A DNA stretch of 52,735 bases from a phage, in sequence record PZ662386.1; one strand, given 5' to 3'. The notes beneath the pieces were generated by a model that was given only the letters and a program-made list of their open reading frames with translations, was not told the origin of the DNA and searched no databases. A program made the position numbers and the translations under genes. Position 1 is the stretch's first letter. Each line of letters starts with the position of its first letter. Positions 39,903-45,671 of the stretch are shown here, in pieces.

Positions 39903-39931
39903 GTCGTTTGACGAATCAGAGCAGTTCTGAA

Positions 39932-40364: not shown

Positions 40365-41268
40365 GGTGCCAATGGCAAACTTGAGAGACTAAGCTAAATC
40401 GATCTGGCATGCACTGGAATATTTCCGGTGCTGCCTTGAACCCACTCCAGAGTGAGTGAGTGGGCTTCAATGAGCATTCTTGTGATTAGAGTTGGGAGGT
40501 AGGCCGATGCCCAAGCTCATGGCCCAGGCAAGAGTGTTCATTGAAGTAGTTTTCTGAGTCTTACGACGGGCCTAAACTGCCTGAAGTTATTGCGACTGTT
40601 TTATTCATTTAAAATAAATGCAAATGATTCTGAAATGCGAGTTGCGGCTTAATTAAATTTAAGTCCTCTCCGTGGTCTTCCAATCCCACGTAACCAAATT
40701 TGGCGCATTGTGGCTTCGAGATGTGATTAATAAATCGGAGCAATAATTAATTTGTATTCTGCGATGCAATGCAGGCTTAAGTCCCCAGTGCGCGTGGGGA
40801 TGTGACAGAGTACAAACTTAATTATGCAGTTGGATATTTCTAGAGGACGGACGAGCACACTGGAATGTCTTCAATTGGTTTAGTGTGAGAAGCTGTGCCA
40901 ATATGAAACGTAACTCCTTGGGGAAGTGCTCCTCTGGATTTCCCTCCACACAGGAATCTCAAGCCTGTGGCAGCGACTTCGAAGCTGCACTGCGTAACCT
41001 AAATTCACCCTAAAGTGAGTTGCCCTGAGTATGGAAATAAACTGCTCATAACCGATGGTATCTACAAAGGTAGATTAAATCAGGTTGCCTGTTGGTACTT
41101 GGGTTCAACACCTGCTTGCACTCGCAAAGTAGTGCCTCGTACCTGAGATGAAGTGAGTCGGGACCATCAATCCCACGTTATGTCAAAACACAGTAGGCGA
41201 CTCACGGATTCTACAAGCCTCGCAGTTCGGGAAAACCTGCGTTATCAAAACCCCCCCCACTCATATTT

Positions 41269-41361
41269 GGACGAGTAGCTCAGAAGGTCTGCTCCAGAGC
41301 TTAGTCAGGTAGAGCAATCTGTTCGACAGATGTGTCGTTGGTTCGAATCCAACCTCGTCCA
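41269..41361 (+). tRNA. tRNA-like gene, non-canonical (93 nt; possible UCG anticodon)
   Basis: Perfect 7-bp acceptor stem GGACGAG/CTCGTCC, TAGCTCAG...AGGTAGAGC D-arm interrupted by ~23 nt, canonical T-arm GTTGG TTCGAAT CCAAC; anticodon arm ambiguous. Confidence 0.4.
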
Positions 41362-41394
41362 CCTACTTTAATAATCCGCAACACTGGAGTCCTT

Positions 41395-41535
41395 ATGGAT
41401 TTTGATGCACTTGATAACTTAGACTTCGGTGCTGCCGAAGAAGCAATTGAAGAACTTAAGAAGAAGCAGGACGAAGAAGCAATCGTTCCTGGTGAGGGCG
41501 ATAACGACTGCTCAAGCGGTGCTTGCGCCATCTAA
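41395..41535 (+). CDS. small acidic protein
   Basis: 46-aa ORF with GGAG RBS immediately after the tRNA-like element. Confidence 0.3.
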   Translation: MDFDALDNLDFGAAEEAIEELKKKQDEEAIVPGEGDNDCSSGACAI

Positions 41536-41543
41536 GGTGATTT

Positions 41544-41780
41544 ATGCAACAGCTTAAATCAATAGTTCTTGGCGTCCTGACTGCATTTGGTATTCTAATT
41601 GCAGTGTTCCTCAAAGGCAAAAGCTCAGGCAAAGCCGAGGAGCGTCAGGAAGCCACAGAGAAGCAACTAGATTCATTAAAAGAATCTATCGAGATTAAAT
41701 CGCATGTTCAGAAAGAAGTGTCTAGCAGTTCTGATAGCAATGTCGATAGTGAGTTGCTCTCAAAGTGGGTTCGTAAGTGA
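41544..41780 (+). CDS. i-spanin-like protein (Rz-like)
   Basis: N-terminal TM helix then charged coiled-coil region; the lipoprotein ORF is embedded in its 3' end. Confidence 0.45.
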   Translation: MQQLKSIVLGVLTAFGILIAVFLKGKSSGKAEERQEATEKQLDSLKESIEIKSHVQKEVSSSSDSNVDSELLSKWVRK

Positions 41781-41913
41781 TTATTGCTTAATTGCACAAC
41801 CAATCTATTTGGATATTGCAGAAGTGAAAATCTTATCACGCGAAACCAAAACACAGATTTTAGTCCACAATGAAACGTGGGCACAAAAGTGTTCTCAACT
41901 TACCCGACAGTGA
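41704..41913 (+). CDS. o-spanin-like lipoprotein (Rz1-like)
   Basis: Signal peptide with lipobox-like IVSC; overlaps the 3' end of the upstream gene in another frame. Confidence 0.45.
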   Translation: MFRKKCLAVLIAMSIVSCSQSGFVSDYCLIAQPIYLDIAEVKILSRETKTQILVHNETWAQKCSQLTRQ

Positions 41914-42290
41914 GTGAACAAATGCTCGCCAACGCATTTCATTTGGCAGTCCGGTACGGGACTTTAAACACACGTATATCATAGTCGAGGGAGTGTGCGA
42001 CTTTAAATAACGAGACTCTAGCAACTTGTTGCGATGGTGGTGTAAGCCCACGCGTTTGGAAGCAGGACTCCAACTCAAACAAACCTGCAAATTGCTCTGG
42101 GCATAACAATTGAAATTGCTGCCTCGCATTGAACGCGAGAAAGTTCAGGTAGTCACTTCCTAGAACAGTGGCCGGGAACAGACCTAGACAAAGTGCTTGA
42201 GAACGTTAGCTCTGTCTTGCCAGCATTAATGGCACGTTGGCCGCGTAAAGGCCACAGCGTCTGACCAACGTATCGGTCAACTAATTCAAT

Positions 42291-42358
42291 GGGATTTTCG
42301 TATGTACGGGCTTGACCGTGGTGAAACGACCTGACTGGTTCGATTCCAGTAAATCCCC
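42291..42358 (+). ncRNA. tRNA-like element (68 nt, truncated cloverleaf)
   Basis: Perfect 7-bp acceptor-like stem GGGATTT/AAATCCC, T-arm ACTGG TTCGATT CCAGT, one internal hairpin. Confidence 0.3.
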
Positions 42359-42474
42359 CGAACAATGGATTCGTAGAGTTAATGAAACCTGCACAACGGG
42401 CTAGGTGAAACATCTGAGGCCGACCGTGTAATTGTGAACGTGGAGTTCACCGAATCCACCAAATCAATGGGCTA

Positions 42475-42541
42475 GTGCAAATGTCAGTCACTAGAAGATG
42501 TGTTGCAAAACGTCTTCCATGATGTGCAAAGTGTCAGTCAC
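42475..42541 (+). repeat. direct repeat GTGCAAA(T/GT)GTCAGTCAC x2
   Basis: Copies at 42475-42491 and 42524-42541; flanked by repeated CCACCAAAT. Confidence 0.5.
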
Positions 42542-42967
42542 GTGCCCACCAAATACGGAGACGCTCGAACTTCCAACCACCGCTGGGGAAGTAGAAGTTT
42601 GTAGAACTCCGCCATTTTCCTAACAGTTATGCCTCTGTTCAAAAGGCTCATGTAAGCGTCTGGCATACCGTAGCGATACGGCTTAGTTGCGCTGATTGTG
42701 ATGTGTCGAAAGAAAGTTCAGGCTTTCGTTTGAGTTCCTCCTCATCTCGAAGTTAGCTGTATTCAAAATACAGACTATGTTCCTATTCACATGAAATATG
42801 CAAGTCAGGGTTCTTAATGTTCAAACATGATGCGAGCATTAAGCGGGTTTATACTTTCCCCGATGGTCCCCATAAACAAGGTTGATTCACTTGGGCGGTT
42901 CGAATCAAATTTAATAAGTGTTTTGTAATAGTCAGGGCACTTACTTAAATTTTAACTGGAGAGAAAC

Positions 42968-43198
42968 ATGAAAACTGCTGAAATTGCCGAAGAGATTTAC
43001 AAGGCCGTAATAGCCAGCCAAATTACAAGTGAAGTTCTGCACATGAATATTGAAGAAGTTCGCAATGCCTTTGGTGGTTTTGCAATCTTGTCAATAGAAG
43101 CTGCGGAAGCACTGACAAGCACGTACAATCAACGCGAATATGAAAAGCGTTCTGTACTAAATGCGTCGATGAAAGAAATTCAGGCGTCATTAAAATAA
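42968..43198 (+). CDS. hypothetical protein
   Basis: 76-aa ORF with GGAGAG RBS, first gene of replication block. Confidence 0.45.
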   Translation: MKTAEIAEEIYKAVIASQITSEVLHMNIEEVRNAFGGFAILSIEAAEALTSTYNQREYEKRSVLNASMKEIQASLK

Positions 43199-43253: not shown

Positions 43254-43904
43254 ATGATTACTGCAACACTCGTTGACCACATGGGCAGCGACCTTACAAC
43301 TGTTAATGCTGCACGAGCTTCTTATGGTGCAGAGTCCCACGAGATGACATTGCGCGACGAAAAGCTCATTGAATTTCTCGCAAGGCATAAGCACAATACA
43401 CCTTTTGCCCATGCGTATGTAACATTACGCTGCACTGCACCAATCTTTGTTGCACGCCAACTTGGTAAGCACCAGGTGGGCTTTCGTTGGAACGAAGTTA
43501 GCCGTCGTTACAAAGATGGCGAAGCAATCGAAATTGAATGCTTTGTACCTGATGTGGTGTTTGGTCGTCCTGAAAAGTTGATGACTCAGACTGCACAACC
43601 ATTGCCACAGGATTTTGCTGACGATATTCACTATCGCATGGAAAGCCACAACAAGGCTTGCATTGCAGAATATGAAACGTTAATTGGTTTGGGGATTGCT
43701 CCAGAGCAAGCCCGAATGGTGTTGCCACAATCCATGATGACTACATGGATTTGGACTGGCTCTTTACTGGGCTGGGCCAACATGTACAAGCAACGCTCTA
43801 CAGAGCACGCCCAATATGAGGCACGTTTGTTTGCAAAAGAAGTCAATAAAATTATGTCAGAGTTGTTTCCTGTTTGCTGGGAGGCACTCATTAAACAGGA
43901 ATAA
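43254..43904 (+). CDS. ThyX-like flavin-dependent thymidylate synthase homolog (divergent motif)
   Basis: ThyX-like core FVARQLGKHQVGFRWNEVSRRY, with the canonical RHR apparently replaced by KHQ. Confidence 0.55.
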   Translation: MITATLVDHMGSDLTTVNAARASYGAESHEMTLRDEKLIEFLARHKHNTPFAHAYVTLRCTAPIFVARQLGKHQVGFRWNEVSRRYKDGEAIEIECFVPDVVFGRPEKLMTQTAQPLPQDFADDIHYRMESHNKACIAEYETLIGLGIAPEQARMVLPQSMMTTWIWTGSLLGWANMYKQRSTEHAQYEARLFAKEVNKIMSELFPVCWEALIKQE

Positions 43905-45671
43905 ATGATGAACGTTAAGCAATGTGTGGCTAAGATTAAGCACGATGTACCAGACTGTAAATCCACATCTGGCAAGTCTTTACAGGTTTGGTTGAATGTC
44001 GATGAAGCTGGTAATAAGAATTTTTCTGGTTACTGTTTTGCATGTGGCGTTCTAGTACCAAATCCTTATGGCAATAATCCGGAGAACATTCCAGAGATTA
44101 AAGTCAAAACTCCTGAAGAAATTCAGGAAGAAGTTGATGAAATCACTGCTTGTCCTCCGTTTGATTTAACCCATCGCAGCATTGAGCCAGAATTTTGGAA
44201 AGCTGCTGGTGTTCGACTTCTGTATTCAGAGTATGATGGAAAGACTCCAAATGCTCTGGCACATGGCTACACCAAAAATGGTAAACTTGTTCGTTGGAAG
44301 ATTAAACTTCTGAACAAGAAGGTTATGTGGTCAGTTGGCGACACCCAGGGTAACGACCCTTACAACTGGATGGCTGCAAAAGCAATTGGCGGTAAGACAC
44401 TGTTCATCACAGAAGGTGAAGAAGACTGTATCGCATTGCGCCAAATCCTCAAAACTATGAACCGTGGTGGTGCATACGAAGATTTGGATTTTGCTGTAAT
44501 TAGTTTGAGTGACGGAAGTGATTCCGTACACAAATGTTTGTCACCAGTTGCAGAAGAAATTAAGCAACGTTGGGAACAGGTTGTTATCGTATTTGATGAT
44601 GATGAACCTGGACGTAAAGCTGCAAAAGAAGCGTGTCGATTGTTGCCTGGCGCAATGATTGCAACACTTCCAGCTAACGATGCCAACGATTGTTTGAAGC
44701 GTGGCTTGCTCAAAGCTACTCAATCTGCTGTTGTGTTTCGTGCTGCTCGACCTTTGCCAACTGCCCTTGTCGATAAAAAGCTTCTTATGGAAGAACTGGA
44801 CGATGAAGTTGAGCAAGGTGTTGACTACCCTTGGACGCGAATGACTGAGCTAATGTTTGGTCAACGTCGTGCTGAGGTAATCACAATTGGTGGTGCAGAA
44901 GGTGGCGGTAAGACTACTATGTCTCGCCAGATTGTACACCACAACATTGTCCAGCATGATTGGGGAGTGTTCACAGCGTACATGGAAGAGCCTCCATCCG
45001 AAACATTACGCCGTATGGCTGGCCTTAATGACAACTTGCCATATTGGGAGCCTGCGTTCACTCGCGAAGACCCTCGATATGATGAAGCGAAGTTCCGTCA
45101 AACTGCTGCGAAGATGCTTCGTAACATGGAGATTTGGGACCGCAAGCAAGCTGGAGAAGACCCTTATGAAACCTGGGATGGGTTAAAGACGATTCTTCGT
45201 CAGATTGGACCAGACATTGATATGTTTGTCCTTGATAACTTAACCTACTTATCGGAAGGGATTTCTGCCTCAGAGAAGAACGACTTCTTAGGTAAGCTGT
45301 ATGCAGATATTACTAAGCTGGCAGACCAATATCAGTTCCATGTAAATATCTTGTCGCACCTTAACCCTGTGGCAAAAGGTCAACGACCTCATGAGGATGG
45401 TGGACGTATTAAGAAGTCAGACTTTACTGGCTCCCGTGCTGCTGCTAAATATTCTCATGGCATGTTCGGCTTTGAGCGTAATAGCCAGGCAGTTGACCCA
45501 AACTGTTCTATCATTCGTTCCATTAAGGCTCGTAAGAGTGGTAAAACAGAAGGCTTCAAGACATACTACGACACCGAATCCGGTCGAATCATCCAACGTT
45601 CTTGGGATGACTCACTGTTCGAAACCAAAGAGATTGTTCAACTCACTAAGAAGAACGGTCCACACCAATAA
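43905..45671 (+). CDS. primase-helicase (T7 gp4-like)
   Basis: N-terminal Cys zinc motif, TOPRIM (ITEGEEDCIAL, VFDDDEPGRKA), Walker A GGAEGGGKTT, Walker B MFVLDNLT. Confidence 0.85.
   Translation: MMNVKQCVAKIKHDVPDCKSTSGKSLQVWLNVDEAGNKNFSGYCFACGVLVPNPYGNNPENIPEIKVKTPEEIQEEVDEITACPPFDLTHRSIEPEFWKAAGVRLLYSEYDGKTPNALAHGYTKNGKLVRWKIKLLNKKVMWSVGDTQGNDPYNWMAAKAIGGKTLFITEGEEDCIALRQILKTMNRGGAYEDLDFAVISLSDGSDSVHKCLSPVAEEIKQRWEQVVIVFDDDEPGRKAAKEACRLLPGAMIATLPANDANDCLKRGLLKATQSAVVFRAARPLPTALVDKKLLMEELDDEVEQGVDYPWTRMTELMFGQRRAEVITIGGAEGGGKTTMSRQIVHHNIVQHDWGVFTAYMEEPPSETLRRMAGLNDNLPYWEPAFTREDPRYDEAKFRQTAAKMLRNMEIWDRKQAGEDPYETWDGLKTILRQIGPDIDMFVLDNLTYLSEGISASEKNDFLGKLYADITKLADQYQFHVNILSHLNPVAKGQRPHEDGGRIKKSDFTGSRAAAKYSHGMFGFERNSQAVDPNCSIIRSIKARKSGKTEGFKTYYDTESGRIIQRSWDDSLFETKEIVQLTKKNGPHQ

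What the first reader, a model, noticed from the sequence alone, without database searches (positions are those of the whole stretch)
40365..42967. 2.6-kb ORF-poor, structure-rich region between early genes and the replication module
In a tightly packed genome this stretch has only tiny ORFs (a spanin-like pair and a 46-aa acidic ORF). It holds two tRNA-like elements, several strong hairpins (40442-40478, TCCCCA GTGCGCG TGGGGA near 40780, 42435-42451, 42474-42496), the 11-nt motif CAATCCCACGT at 40684 and 41168, a C8 tract at 41251-41258, and direct repeats at 42475-42541. It may encode stable RNAs, contain physical genome ends, or be a processing/regulatory hub.
Basis: seen in the sequence. 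Interest (0 to 1): 0.5.

Follow-up and report, generated by a model that had tools for sequence, protein, structure and literature searches.

The report
Phage RNA island with tmRNA-like tag template
The gene-poor stretch is a cluster of structured RNA genes whose best-defined member looks like the message half of the bacterial ribosome-rescue RNA (tmRNA) but lacks its tRNA half, a widespread and unannotated phage element that may let phages tamper with ribosome rescue.

Summary
The window is a phiEcoM-GJ1-like phage (Chaseviridae). The ORF-poor stretch is real and conserved across the family, but it is neither a genome end nor decayed protein genes. It is a mosaic of structured-RNA modules around a real spanin pair.

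The main result lies at 40546-40741, a tmRNA-like module. It has a conserved leader and an AU-rich spacer with U(-5)A(-4). A GCA "resume" codon opens a 10-codon SsrA-type tag, ANDSEMRVAA, whose stop sits in a hairpin. Two pseudoknots follow, both supported by covariation.

The same module occurs in over 117 viral contigs: Chaseviridae, Ackermannviridae, Klebsiella phages and lambdoid prophages. It is found in 473 of 5426 complete E. coli genomes and was unannotated in the twelve E. coli records listed. The tag is always 10 codons and evolves mostly synonymously.

No tRNA-like domain of tmRNA type was found. ARAGORN calls no tmRNA, and Rfam scores fall below threshold.

The leader is complementary to the host ssrA tag codons 3-6 and tracks the host (Erwinia versus E. 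coli).

My best reading is a TLD-less tag template that acts through host trans-translation. The two "tRNA-like elements" are dispensable cassettes, probably processing or decoy elements. The mechanism is inferred, not shown.

The parts
40465..40546 (+). Long stem (40465-40482 pairs with 40529-40546, 16 of 18 pairs) directly upstream of the leader. It sits where the 'Ha' helix precedes the module in other phage lineages.
   Evidence: Inverted repeat found. Ha-type helix upstream of the leader in other lineages.
40546..40554 (+). Leader GUAGUUUUC, the conserved single-stranded 5' element of the module. It is a perfect complement of E. coli ssrA nt 99-107 (tag codons GAA AAC UAC).
   Evidence: Alignment A2 shows GTTTTC invariant or nearly so in 40 sequences. 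It is the longest module-to-ssrA complement in 9 of 10 lineages, and Erwinia phages match Erwinia ssrA better (11 nt, p 0.015-0.035).
40600..40619 (+). Hairpin UUUAUU / AAUAAA plus the AU-rich spacer ending ...UAAAU before the resume codon. It replaces pseudoknot PK1 of the commoner variant and keeps U(-5)A(-4).
   Evidence: Sequence. The same 'type B' hairpin, with a C-G to U-A change, is seen in L013, L068, L071 and the Erwinia phages.
40620..40652 (+). Tag reading frame GCA AAT GAT TCT GAA ATG CGA GTT GCG GCT TAA, encoding ANDSEMRVAA*. It is SsrA-type, with no start codon or Shine-Dalgarno sequence.
   Evidence: Weak Rfam tmRNA-model matches to this stretch. All 117 homologues carry 10 codons plus a stop. 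There are 35 nucleotide versions and 21 peptides; single-nucleotide neighbours are 12 synonymous to 6 nonsynonymous against 22.9% expected; other frames carry stops in 29 of 35. 4HA13 encodes the same peptide with 4 synonymous changes.
40648..40663 (+). H5-like hairpin (CUUAA / UUAAG) that holds the stop codon.
   Evidence: Sequence. The outer helix covaries in other lineages: CUGA/UCAG, CUGG/CCAG, AAAG/CUUU.
40671..40703 (+). Pseudoknot PK2. Stem 1 is 40671-75 with 40686-90. Loop CCAA 40680-83 pairs with UUGG 40700-03. It contains the first CAATCCCACGT copy.
   Evidence: the count of structure pairs on A2: stem 1 is 99% paired with 3 covarying pairs; stem 2 is 100% paired with 3 covarying pairs (CCGA/UCGG, CCAG/CUGG, CCAA/UUGG, UCGA/UCGA).
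40706..40741 (+). Pseudoknot PK3. CAU 40706-08 pairs with AUG 40721-23. GCUUCGA 40713-19 pairs with UCGGAGC 40735-41. The invariant loop UGAUUAAUAA lies at 40724-33.
   Evidence: Pair 207/229 in A2 reads CG 20, UA 12, GC 8. Stem 2 has at least 10 covarying versions. TGTGATTAATAA is invariant in the 40 A2 sequences, three of which were not selected with the search pattern; for the other loci it was part of that pattern.
40782..40800 (+). Hairpin UCCCCA-GUGCGCG-UGGGGA. It may be a remnant of the anticodon-arm-like hairpin (loop UGGACGCGCGG) of the mini tRNA-like that follows the module in Erwinia phages.
   Evidence: Fold (z -1.5). Comparison with L128 1633-1699 and L002 2760-2834. This link is an inference.
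40822..40997 (+). Multibranched structured RNA domain. Helices: 40822-30 with 40989-97, 40831-34 with 40945-48, 40839-47 with 40930-38, 40874-77 with 40899-902.
   Evidence: RNAalifold on the window plus 9 relatives gives 0 unpaired cells in the 9-bp helices, with wobble and compensatory changes. The domain is absent from SA91KD.
41015..41205 (+). Conserved RNA block. It contains hairpin 41060-65/41070-75 (AUCUAC/GUAGAU, UUCCAC/GUGGAA, CCCAU/GUGGG), the invariant stretch 41098-41150, and stem 41153-60/41198-205, which carries the second CAATCCCACGT copy.
   Evidence: The block is conserved in PM1, SNUABM27, Faunus and Calisson. ORF frames are not conserved.
41269..41364 (+). tRNA-like element 1. 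It has acceptor, T-arm and anticodon-like arm, with a 21-nt insertion before the D-arm. It is annotated in GJ1 as 'tRNA-Arg, may contain an intron'.
   Evidence: z -2.4. It is absent from PYps4T, the anticodon loop differs in Bp7, and SA91KD has a 6-nt deletion.
41395..41535 (+). 46-aa acidic ORF. It is conserved at 94-96% identity in relatives and its function is unknown.
   Evidence: Annotated as a CDS in Bp10, ST32, MLP1, PYps4T and SA91KD. No PHROG match.
41544..41913 (+). Overlapping i-spanin (41544-41780) and o-spanin (41704-41913) genes.
   Evidence: PHROG 1026 and 1275, Rz-like spanin. Annotation in GJ1 and 4HA13.
41914..42287 (+). Noncoding stretch holding short blocks that are nearly invariant across genera (41980-42018, 42088-42125, 42144-42233). 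Function unknown.
   Evidence: The blocks are not repeated elsewhere in the window.
42288..42365 (+). tRNA-like element 2, a 78-nt presence/absence cassette. The mini tRNA-like spans 42291-42357, with a 7-bp acceptor, two small hairpins, a T-arm and no anticodon arm.
   Evidence: A precise indel present only in the window and PO103-1 among 10 relatives. Fold.
42366..42907 (+). Noncoding stretch with conserved blocks 42355-42553 (holding the direct repeats) and 42626-42902, several covarying hairpins, and a window-specific insert at about 42552-42610.
42908..42950 (+). Terminator-like hairpin followed by a T-run, just before the replication module (gp32 homologue starts at 42968).
   Evidence: -12.6 kcal/mol, z -4.5, 0 of 200 shuffles as stable.

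Best explanation
The 2.6-kb stretch is an island of RNA genes. It is probably transcribed as part of the unit that starts at the phage-RNAP promoter at 39930 and ends at the hairpin at 42908-42950, and it is interrupted only by a small acidic ORF and the spanin pair.

Its core member, at 40546-40741, is a roughly 200-nt RNA that has the mRNA-like half of a tmRNA but no tRNA-like domain. Its parts, in order, are a single-stranded leader, a hairpin or pseudoknot, the U(-5)A(-4) frame-setting spacer, a GCA resume codon, a 10-codon degradation-type tag (ANDSEMRVAA), a stop codon in a hairpin, and two pseudoknots.

Most likely mechanism (inferred). The RNA is cut out of the long transcript at the flanking stem and tRNA-like structures. 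Its leader anneals to codons 3-6 of the tag frame of the host's own tmRNA. The host frame becomes double-stranded, and the phage frame is presented to the SmpB-tmRNA-ribosome complex next to it. Stalled ribosomes would then be rescued with a phage-specified tag instead of ANDENYALAA. At the least, host tagging would be blocked.

The tRNA-like elements and other structured blocks are interchangeable cassettes. They probably serve as RNase P / RNase Z processing signals or as decoys. They are not functional tRNAs.

What is shown:
- the anatomy;
- the covariation;
- coding-type selection on the tag;
- the wide distribution;
- the absence of a recognisable TLD;
- the host-matched complementarity.

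What is inferred:
- transcription;
- processing;
- pairing with host tmRNA;
- use as a template.
For: - **Identity of the phage and conservation of the layout.**
- **Shared module.** A 130-150-nt segment is 72-86% identical in Erwinia and Pantoea Chaseviridae, Ackermannviridae and a 48-kb Klebsiella phage, all unannotated.
- **Distribution.** The lambdoid version is in 473 of 5426 complete E. coli genomes, with no annotated feature under the match in the twelve records listed. It lies between Q and the holin.
- **Tag.** It is always 10 codons from GCA to a stop, starts A-N-D/E, and ends AA, VA or DA. There are 35 nucleotide versions for 21 peptides. Single-nucleotide neighbours split 12 synonymous to 6 nonsynonymous against 22.9% expected. 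The other frames are closed in 29 of 35.
- **Structure.** 89.4% of cells are paired against 79.6% when shuffled. There are 129 double-change cells against 37.6. Slid controls give 11-34.
- **tmRNA models.** Rfam tmRNA models pick out exactly this stretch, but weakly.
- **No TLD.** ARAGORN calls no tmRNA in the window or in 117 loci. My acceptor/T-arm scan found no G3:U70 acceptor associated with the module.
- **Leader complementarity.** Its position is the same in 9 of 10 lineages. Erwinia phages match Erwinia ssrA ACGAAAACUUC over 11 nt and E. coli ssrA over only 9. E. coli phages do the reverse.
- **Cassette behaviour of the tRNA-likes.**
- **Helices elsewhere in the island.**
Against: - No expression data were available.
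- Trans-translation needs an aminoacylated tRNA-like domain and none was found. No precedent is known to me for a template supplied in trans by annealing to tmRNA.
- The complementarity is short. In the window's own clade it is only 9 nt, which is not significant alone (p about 0.15-0.19). The host-specific change rests on essentially one position and a few related lineages.
- The module has no significant primary-sequence similarity to E. coli ssrA.
- PK1 has little covariation and is replaced by a hairpin in the window.
- The IMG/VR loci were collected with a pattern taken from the module's most conserved part, so the diversity sampled is biased.
- A TLD partner could exist that my simple scans cannot recognise.
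Confidence: 0.5

Rival explanations
1. The module is a decoy or antisense inhibitor of trans-translation and is never translated. It would mimic the body of tmRNA to soak up tmRNA-binding factors (ribosomal protein S1, RNase R, ribosomes), and/or its leader would block or destabilise host tmRNA. The result would be that phage or host proteins on stalled ribosomes are not tagged for degradation.
For: - No TLD was found.
- The leader is complementary to host tag codons in a host-matched way.
- There is a precedent of the mirror kind: mycobacteriophage DS6A carries a TLD-only ssrA, thought to titrate SmpB (PMC4131195).
Against: A pure mimic or antisense RNA would not need these features:
- a frame of exactly 10 sense codons in all 117 copies;
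- an excess of synonymous change;
- interchangeable stop codons TAA, TAG and TGA;
- the conserved U(-5)A(-4) frame-setting spacer.
Confidence: 0.25
2. The module is the coding piece of a phage-encoded two-piece tmRNA. Its acceptor piece would be one of the neighbouring anticodon-less tRNA-like RNAs. Candidates are the Hb- and Ha-type or Ackermannviridae 150-nt tRNA-likes with D-arm, T-arm and long variable arm, the 63-71-nt tRNA-like after the module in Erwinia phages, or tRNA-like 1 or 2 in the window. That piece would be charged by a host synthetase that does not read the anticodon.
For: - In the lineages examined in detail the module is followed by a tRNA or tRNA-like, 3-600 nt downstream.
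- Several of these lack an anticodon loop and end in NCCA (L031 ACCA, L028 UCCA, L002 CCCA).
- Two-piece tmRNAs exist in bacteria and marine phages (PMC9004378).
Against: - No tRNA-like is common to all module-bearing phages. In the window's clade, tRNA-like 1 is missing in PYps4T and tRNA-like 2 is missing in 8 of 9 relatives, while the module is at least 97% conserved.
- No G3:U70 was found.
- No conserved pairing between the module and any tRNA-like was found. A proposed closing helix (Ha 3' strand with the next Ha 5' strand) fails in L079.
Confidence: 0.12
3. The region is an evolutionary graveyard. It would hold decaying tRNA and tmRNA genes and degraded protein genes with no present function, retained only because deletions have not yet removed them.
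For: - tRNA-like 1 carries an insertion and scores below the tRNA thresholds.
- Cassettes come and go between close relatives.
- The ORF annotated as gp30 in GJ1 is disrupted in the window.
Against: - The module is 97-100% identical among relatives that are about 90% identical overall.
- It is shared across four unrelated phage groups.
- It shows compensatory base changes and synonymous-biased tag evolution.
- Other blocks are nearly invariant across genera.
- Phage genomes are under strong pressure for compactness.
Confidence: 0.08
4. The region holds the physical genome ends or a packaging site.
For: Only the lack of genes and the presence of repeats and hairpins.
Against: - The homologous stretch is internal, at 13.5-16.0 kb, in the deposited linear GJ1 genome.
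- The blocks are shuffled between genera, which is unlike a pac or cos site.
- The content is explained by RNA genes.
Confidence: 0.02

Closest known systems
Bacterial tmRNA (SsrA; Rfam RF00023) and its mRNA-like domain
   Same: - A GCA resume codon preceded by an AU-rich spacer with U(-5)A(-4).
- A 10-codon tag starting AND and ending in small hydrophobic residues plus Ala.
- A stop codon in a hairpin (H5).
- Pseudoknots on both sides.
- Rfam tmRNA models align to the tag stretch.
   Different: - No acceptor stem, T-arm, G3:U70 or CCA frames the module.
- Scores are far below the gathering thresholds (9.9-27 bits against 47-50).
- It has two downstream pseudoknots instead of three.
- It has no significant primary-sequence similarity to E. 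coli ssrA.
- It carries a conserved 5' leader complementary to the host's own tag codons.
Two-piece (circularly permuted) tmRNAs of Alpha- and Betaproteobacteria, cyanobacteria and marine phages (for example phage Melnitz; PMC9004378)
   Same: The coding part is a separate RNA from the acceptor part. These also occur in phages. The best weak Rfam match of the module is to the tmRNA_permuted model.
   Different: In those, the coding piece still starts with the 5' acceptor strand and pairs with an acceptor piece encoded just upstream, and ARAGORN recognises them. Here no acceptor piece or pairing partner could be identified.
Mycobacteriophage DS6A 'TLD-only' ssrA (Hudson, Lau and Williams 2014, PMC4131195)
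   Same: A phage carries only one half of a tmRNA, presumably to interfere with host trans-translation.
   Different: It is the opposite half: DS6A keeps the tRNA-like domain, whereas this element keeps the tag template and pseudoknots. The hosts differ too, Actinobacteria against Enterobacterales.
Phage tRNA-region stable RNAs and large phage ncRNAs next to tRNA genes (T4 species 1 and 2 RNAs; GOLLD and ROOL). This comparison is from my own knowledge.
   Same: ORF-free, structure-rich stretches adjacent to tRNA genes in phages, probably matured by the tRNA-processing enzymes.
   Different: There was no Rfam match to GOLLD or ROOL. The modules here are short, shuffled cassettes rather than one large RNA.
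Prophage sRNAs of the PR' 'moron' site between Q and the lysis genes (AgvB, StxS, STnc100/PasD; PMC4104026 and bioRxiv 10.64898/2026.05.13.724894)
   Same: The lambdoid copies of the module lie in exactly this Q-to-holin gap. An STnc100 match lies in the same noncoding region of Klebsiella phage Magnus.
   Different: Those are Hfq-dependent base-pairing sRNAs without a tag frame. None of their Rfam models matches the module.

Membership tests
tmRNA (SsrA) | tRNA-like domain: 5' and 3' ends form a 7-bp acceptor stem with G3:U70, a T-arm and 3' NCCA | tested here: not met
   ARAGORN finds no tmRNA in the window, in 5 annotated phage loci or in 117 IMG/VR loci. My acceptor/T-arm scan found only ordinary tRNAs and tRNA-likes, with no G3:U70 acceptor associated with the module. 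A 377-nt spanning pairing in Ackermannviridae is better explained by a local tRNA-like.
tmRNA (SsrA) | Internal tag reading frame that begins at a sense (usually GCA) resume codon without start signals and ends at a stop codon, encoding a proteolysis-type tag | tested here: met
   40620-40652 encodes ANDSEMRVAA*. All 117 homologues have 10 codons. Change is biased to synonymous sites and the other frames are closed.
tmRNA (SsrA) | Frame-setting upstream sequence (U85 A86 in E. coli, at -5 and -4). The defining role of these bases is from my knowledge of the tmRNA literature. | tested here: met
   TAAAT precedes GCA. The A at -4 and the A at -3 are invariant, and the T at -5 is nearly so, in 40 aligned sequences.
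tmRNA (SsrA) | Pseudoknot PK1 just upstream of the resume codon | tested here: inconclusive
   A PK1-like fold is possible in the commoner variant, but it is only 83% paired with one-sided changes. The window and several other lineages have a simple hairpin instead.
tmRNA (SsrA) | Stop codon in helix 5, followed by pseudoknots | tested here: met
   H5 outer helix, PK2 and PK3 all covary.
tmRNA (SsrA) | Reaches the Rfam gathering score of a tmRNA family | tested here: not met
   Window: tmRNA_permuted 20.8 against 47 bits and alpha_tmRNA 14.9 against 50 bits. L005: 27.1 against 47 and RF00023 9.9 against 47.
Two-piece tmRNA | A separate acceptor piece (T-arm, 3' acceptor strand, CCA) that pairs with the 5' end of the coding piece | tested here: not met
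   No tRNA-like is shared by all module-bearing phages and no conserved intermolecular pairing was found.
tRNA (for the two tRNA-like elements) | Cloverleaf with a 7-nt anticodon loop, recognised by ARAGORN or at the Rfam gathering score | tested here: not met
   ARAGORN finds 0 in the window. Rfam tRNA gives a partial match of 27.9 bits against 29 for element 1, which has a 21-nt insertion before the D-arm. Element 2 has no anticodon arm.
Trans-translation template (function, not family) | The tag is added to nascent chains in an SmpB- and tmRNA-dependent way | not testable with these tools
   This needs proteomics or reporter assays in infected cells.

The most novel reading that the evidence does not exclude
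Enterobacterial phages of at least four unrelated groups carry a TLD-less 'tag cassette' RNA. It would dock by its leader onto the tag codons of the host's tmRNA and substitute its own reading frame. The phage, not the cell, would then decide what is appended to proteins released from stalled ribosomes. That would be a viral hijack of trans-translation by template replacement.
Probability: 0.3. Interest if true: 0.9.

Novelty: new variant of a known kind. Interest (0 to 1): 0.78.

Why it matters
tmRNA-SmpB is the universal bacterial ribosome-rescue system. A tmRNA is defined by the union of a tRNA-like and an mRNA-like domain.

This element keeps only the message half. It is nevertheless conserved, structured, evolving as a coding sequence, and spread through Chaseviridae, Ackermannviridae, Klebsiella phages and lambdoid prophages of pathogenic E. 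coli. That implies either a new way of feeding a template into trans-translation or a new class of viral inhibitor of it.

It would also matter in three practical ways:
- It would give a function to conserved "empty" DNA between Q and the lysis genes of lambdoid prophages, and to the tRNA regions of several phage families.
- It would explain why annotation pipelines leave these regions blank.
- It would offer a directly testable system: the phage tag is a ready-made mass-spectrometry signature.

It also warns that tRNA calls in these regions, such as "tRNA-Arg with intron" and "tRNA-Ser(gga)", are probably not tRNAs.

Tried and rejected
1. **Ordinary phage tmRNA.** Rejected: no TLD was found by ARAGORN or by my scan.
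2. **Closing P2-like helix.** I tested whether the Ha 3' strand upstream pairs with the Ha 5' strand downstream of the module. Rejected because in L079 each Ha pairs locally, with covariation, and the cross pairing is impossible.
3. **A 377-nt acceptor pairing spanning the module in Ackermannviridae** (GCUGUUU with AAACGGC-UCCA). Rejected: GCUGUUU belongs to a covarying local hairpin, and AAACGGC pairs with a local GCCGUU of a 150-nt tRNA-like.
4. **Sequence homology of parts of the module to E. coli ssrA.** The candidates were TLD 5'-like CUGAGUCUUACGACGGG, PK4-like GUUAG...CUGAC, and T-arm-like GCGGGUUUUUAG. None beats shuffles (p > 0.08).
5. **tRNA-like 1 as the TLD partner.** Rejected: it is absent from PYps4T. 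A 10-bp pairing between 40540-49 and 41363-72 is at chance level.
6. **RNAduplex of whole RNAs.** Uninformative; it gives full-length spurious duplexes.
7. **The near-invariant short blocks as repeated promoters.** They have no other copies in the window, and the phage promoter motif ACATTAGTTGGATGTGA is absent from the region.
8. **GJ1 gp30-like ORF as a degraded protein gene.** Its frames are not conserved.
9. **blastn of the window module against E. coli genomes.** No match; only the lambdoid version is found there.
10. **Literature.** No paper holds any of six tag peptides searched, including the window's and the four commonest, and none describes a TLD-less tmRNA-like phage RNA. The library lacks most subscription journals, so prior description cannot be excluded.


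Full report
**What the window is.** The 2.6-kb query matches 82 phage records. Thirty-six cover at least 80% of it at about 90% identity, all phiEcoM-GJ1-like phages of E. coli and Yersinia (Chaseviridae, Carltongylesvirus). In GJ1 the stretch lies at 13.5-16.0 kb of the linear genome. There it is annotated with two hypothetical proteins, a "tRNA-Arg, may contain an intron" and an Rz-like spanin. Other genera of the family (Loessnervirus, Faunusvirus, Sabourvirus, Suwonvirus) share one layout:
- a gp29-like gene;
- about 1 kb without convincing genes;
- small ORFs and spanins;
- about 1 kb without genes;
- a gp32-like gene, thyX and primase/helicase.

So the gap is a conserved property of the family.

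**Checking the observation.**
- The ORF list confirms the absence of long ORFs.
- The spanin pair is real (PHROG Rz-like spanin, E 3.6e-20 and 3.6e-17). The 46-aa acidic ORF has no family.
- Both tRNA-like elements exist, but ARAGORN calls nothing in the window. Rfam gives 27.9 bits for the first against a threshold of 29; the second scores only 18.8 bits against the tRNA-Sec model (threshold 47).
- The listed hairpins fold but are unremarkable (z -1.5 to -1.9). The terminator-like hairpin at 42908-42950 is the exception (z -4.5).
- The duplicated 11-mer is at chance frequency by my estimate.

**The key finding.** An E-value Rfam scan gave weak hits of two tmRNA models at 40545-40707. Read in the aligned frame, 40620-40652 is GCA AAT GAT TCT GAA ATG CGA GTT GCG GCT TAA, which encodes ANDSEMRVAA*. 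This is an SsrA-type tag; E. coli's is ANDENYALAA.

The spread listing of the BLAST ranking showed that window 40592-40742 is the only part of the region conserved outside Carltongylesvirus. It is 86% identical in Erwinia phages. It is 71-85% identical in Ackermannviridae (PC3, Magnus) and in a 48-kb Klebsiella phage. In each case it sits in unannotated DNA near tRNA genes.

Of these, 117 carry the tag frame about 95 nt upstream. There are 19 peptides, all of 10 residues, all starting A-N(K)-D/E. A lambdoid version lies between the Q antiterminator/PR'-tR' and the holin. It is present in 473 of 5426 complete E. coli genomes, 252 places on chromosomes and 264 on plasmids, with no annotated feature under the match in the twelve records listed.

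**Anatomy and support.** Alignment of 40 diverse copies (A2) and explicit pair counts support a defined fold.
- 89.4% of cells are paired against 79.6% in shuffles.
- 129 cells have changes on both sides against 37.6.
- Slid controls give 11-34.
- PK2 stem 1, PK2 stem 2 (loop CCGA/UCGG, CCAG/CUGG, CCAA/UUGG, UCGA/UCGA), PK3 stem 1 (CAX/YUG) and PK3 stem 2 each show several compensatory variants.
- PK1 is weakly supported. It is replaced by a hairpin in the window and some other lineages.
- The spacer TAAAT before GCA keeps U(-5)A(-4).

The tag evolves like a coding sequence.
- There are 35 nucleotide versions for 21 peptides.
- Single-nucleotide neighbours are 12 synonymous to 6 nonsynonymous, against 22.9% expected.
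- Stop codons TAA, TAG and TGA interchange.
- The other two frames are closed in 29 of 35.
- The window and phage 4HA13 encode the same peptide through four synonymous differences.

**What is missing.** No tRNA-like domain frames the module.
- ARAGORN finds no tmRNA anywhere.
- No Rfam tmRNA family reaches threshold.
- My scan for acceptor plus T-arm found only ordinary tRNAs and odd tRNA-likes, with no G3:U70 acceptor associated with the module.
- In Klebsiella phage VLCpiS13b-like genomes a sigma-70 promoter (TTGACA-17-TAGATT) sits about 10 nt before the leader. No 5' acceptor strand can be encoded there.
- The module has no significant primary similarity to E. coli ssrA.

In the strict sense, then, it is not a tmRNA. 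An exhaustive 2014 survey found phage ssrA only in mycobacteriophages and Bacillus phage G, plus a TLD-only gene in DS6A (PMC4131195). Later ARAGORN surveys found tmRNAs in 2.3% of phages (PMC9004378). ARAGORN does not see this element. I found none of six of its tags, including the window's, in the searchable literature.

**Neighbours.** Upstream, the module is preceded either by a promoter or by a long stem. That stem is the "Ha" helix in other lineages and 40465-82/40529-46 in the window. Downstream, it is followed by a tRNA or a tRNA-like in the lineages I examined in detail:
- tRNA-Asn after 16 nt in L040;
- a 63-nt mini tRNA-like after 13 nt in Erwinia phage Calisson;
- a 150-nt anticodon-less tRNA-like ending UCCA in Ackermannviridae;
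- Ha- and Hb-framed tRNA-likes with D-arm, T-arm and large anticodon-arm insertions in lambdoid and Klebsiella phages.

This fits release of the module by the tRNA-processing enzymes, which is an inference. I could not show that any of these is an acceptor partner. None is universal. In the window's own clade, tRNA-like 1 is missing from PYps4T. tRNA-like 2 is a precise 78-nt indel present in only one of nine relatives. The module itself stays 97-100% identical.

**The leader.** The 5' leader (A/U)AGUUUUCG(U) is nearly invariant. That holds even in lineages lacking the PK1 sequence it might otherwise pair with. In 9 of 10 lineages it is the longest perfect complement between the module and the host ssrA. 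It always targets tag codons 3-6.
- Lambdoid UAGUUUUCGUC matches E. coli over 11 nt (p = 0.005).
- The window's GUAGUUUUC matches E. coli over 9 nt (p about 0.19).
- Erwinia phages have GAAGUUUUCGU. This matches Erwinia piriflorinigrans ssrA ACGAAAACUUC (tag ANDENFAPAALAA) over 11 nt (p 0.015-0.035), but E. coli ssrA over only 9.

The A/U switch follows the host's Tyr-to-Phe codon. This is suggestive, not conclusive.

**The rest of the island.** Between genera only short blocks are conserved, and their order is shuffled. Among ten close relatives the region is a mosaic of 40-190-nt insertions and deletions, some flanked by short direct repeats. Many helices keep pairing through wobble or compensatory changes. 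Examples are the 9-bp long-range helices 40822-30/40989-97 and 40839-47/40930-38, with no unpaired cell, and hairpin 41060-75 with three compensatory pairs. The ORF annotated as gp30 in GJ1 is not conserved as a frame. No phage-RNAP promoter motif lies inside the region; the nearest is at 39930.

**Interpretation.** The evidence is strong that this is an RNA-gene island. Its core is a conserved, structured RNA bearing a tag reading frame and derived from or convergent on the mRNA-like half of tmRNA. How it works is inferred.

The frame shows coding-type selection and keeps the SmpB-type frame-setting context. I therefore think it is read during trans-translation. The only universal TLD in the infected cell is the host's. 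So I favour docking on host tmRNA through the leader, with replacement or blocking of the host frame. A pure decoy/antisense role and a phage two-piece tmRNA with an unrecognised acceptor piece remain live alternatives.

Noticed in passing
L018 (IMG/VR prophage) and L259 = E. coli O26:H11 11368, 3283438-3290893: In lambdoid prophages the module sits in the 1.07-kb unannotated gap between the Q antiterminator/PR'-tR' and the holin, which is the 'moron' site where stx genes and known prophage sRNAs lie. About half of the E. coli places (264 of 516) are on plasmids, perhaps phage-plasmids.
   Followed up: partly
L005, L013, L018, L031, L045, L079, L080 and others (flanks of the module): Two conserved helices frame highly variable inserts and recur like cassette boundaries: 'Ha' (GGUAAGAGCAUU...AGUGCUCUUUCC) and 'Hb' (GUUGUGGUG...CACCACAAC). 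In subsets of loci they are the acceptor stems of tRNA-like RNAs with D-arm, T-arm, long variable arm and a 40-55-nt insertion in place of the anticodon loop. Their CA-rich strands (CACAACA) resemble GcvB target sites, as far as I recall.
   Followed up: partly
L004 (Klebsiella phage Magnus) 4305-4519: An Rfam STnc100 match above the gathering score (52.9 bits) lies in the same 3-kb noncoding tRNA region of an Ackermannviridae phage. STnc100 is otherwise known from Salmonella and E. coli prophages.
   Followed up: no
window 41300-41315 against Bp7 (L131): The anticodon-like loop of tRNA-like 1 reads GUUCGAC in the window and most relatives. It reads GUUAGGC in Bp7, where the anticodon position changes UCG to UAG and position 37 changes A to G on an otherwise identical body. 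This is odd for a real tRNA and compatible with a decoy.
   Followed up: no
Relatives at window position 40805 (Bp7, Bp10) and 41370 (TH23): Bp7 and Bp10 carry a 116-nt insertion flanked by a 13-nt direct repeat, CAGAGTACAAACT. TH23 carries a 76-nt insertion that is another mini tRNA-like (GCCAAU...T-arm...AUUGGC). The cassettes seem to move by short-repeat recombination or an unknown mobility mechanism.
   Followed up: partly
window 14706, 28358, 33518, 37688, 37829, 39598, 39930: There are matches to the GJ1 'putative phage promoter' motif ACATTAGTTGGATGTGA, all on the + strand. None lies between 39930 and 43675.
   Followed up: partly
window 43254-45671 against GJ1 (L001 4927-5370) and SA91KD: GJ1 has an HNH endonuclease gene between thyX and the primase/helicase gene, and SA91KD carries one just after its gp32-like gene. 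In the window the two genes abut (43904/43905).
   Followed up: no
L027 (53-kb metagenomic viral contig): This Chaseviridae-like contig carries a module whose tag, ANDNYALAAA with a UGA stop, is the closest to host-type tags. Its H5 region has a 13-nt complement to E. coli ssrA nt 233-245 (p = 0.01).
   Followed up: no
window 42968-42980: The start of the gp32-like gene (CAUGAAAACUGCU) is complementary over 10 bp, one of them G-U, to the module leader AGUAGUUUUC. This may be chance.
   Followed up: no
L002 2760-2834 and L128 1633-1699: The Erwinia-phage element annotated 'tRNA-Ser(gga)' is a 63-71-nt tRNA-like. Its 'anticodon' loop is a conserved 11-nt UGGACGCGCGG on covarying stems (CAGG/CCUG against UUGAG/CUCAA). 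It is not a tRNA.
   Followed up: partly
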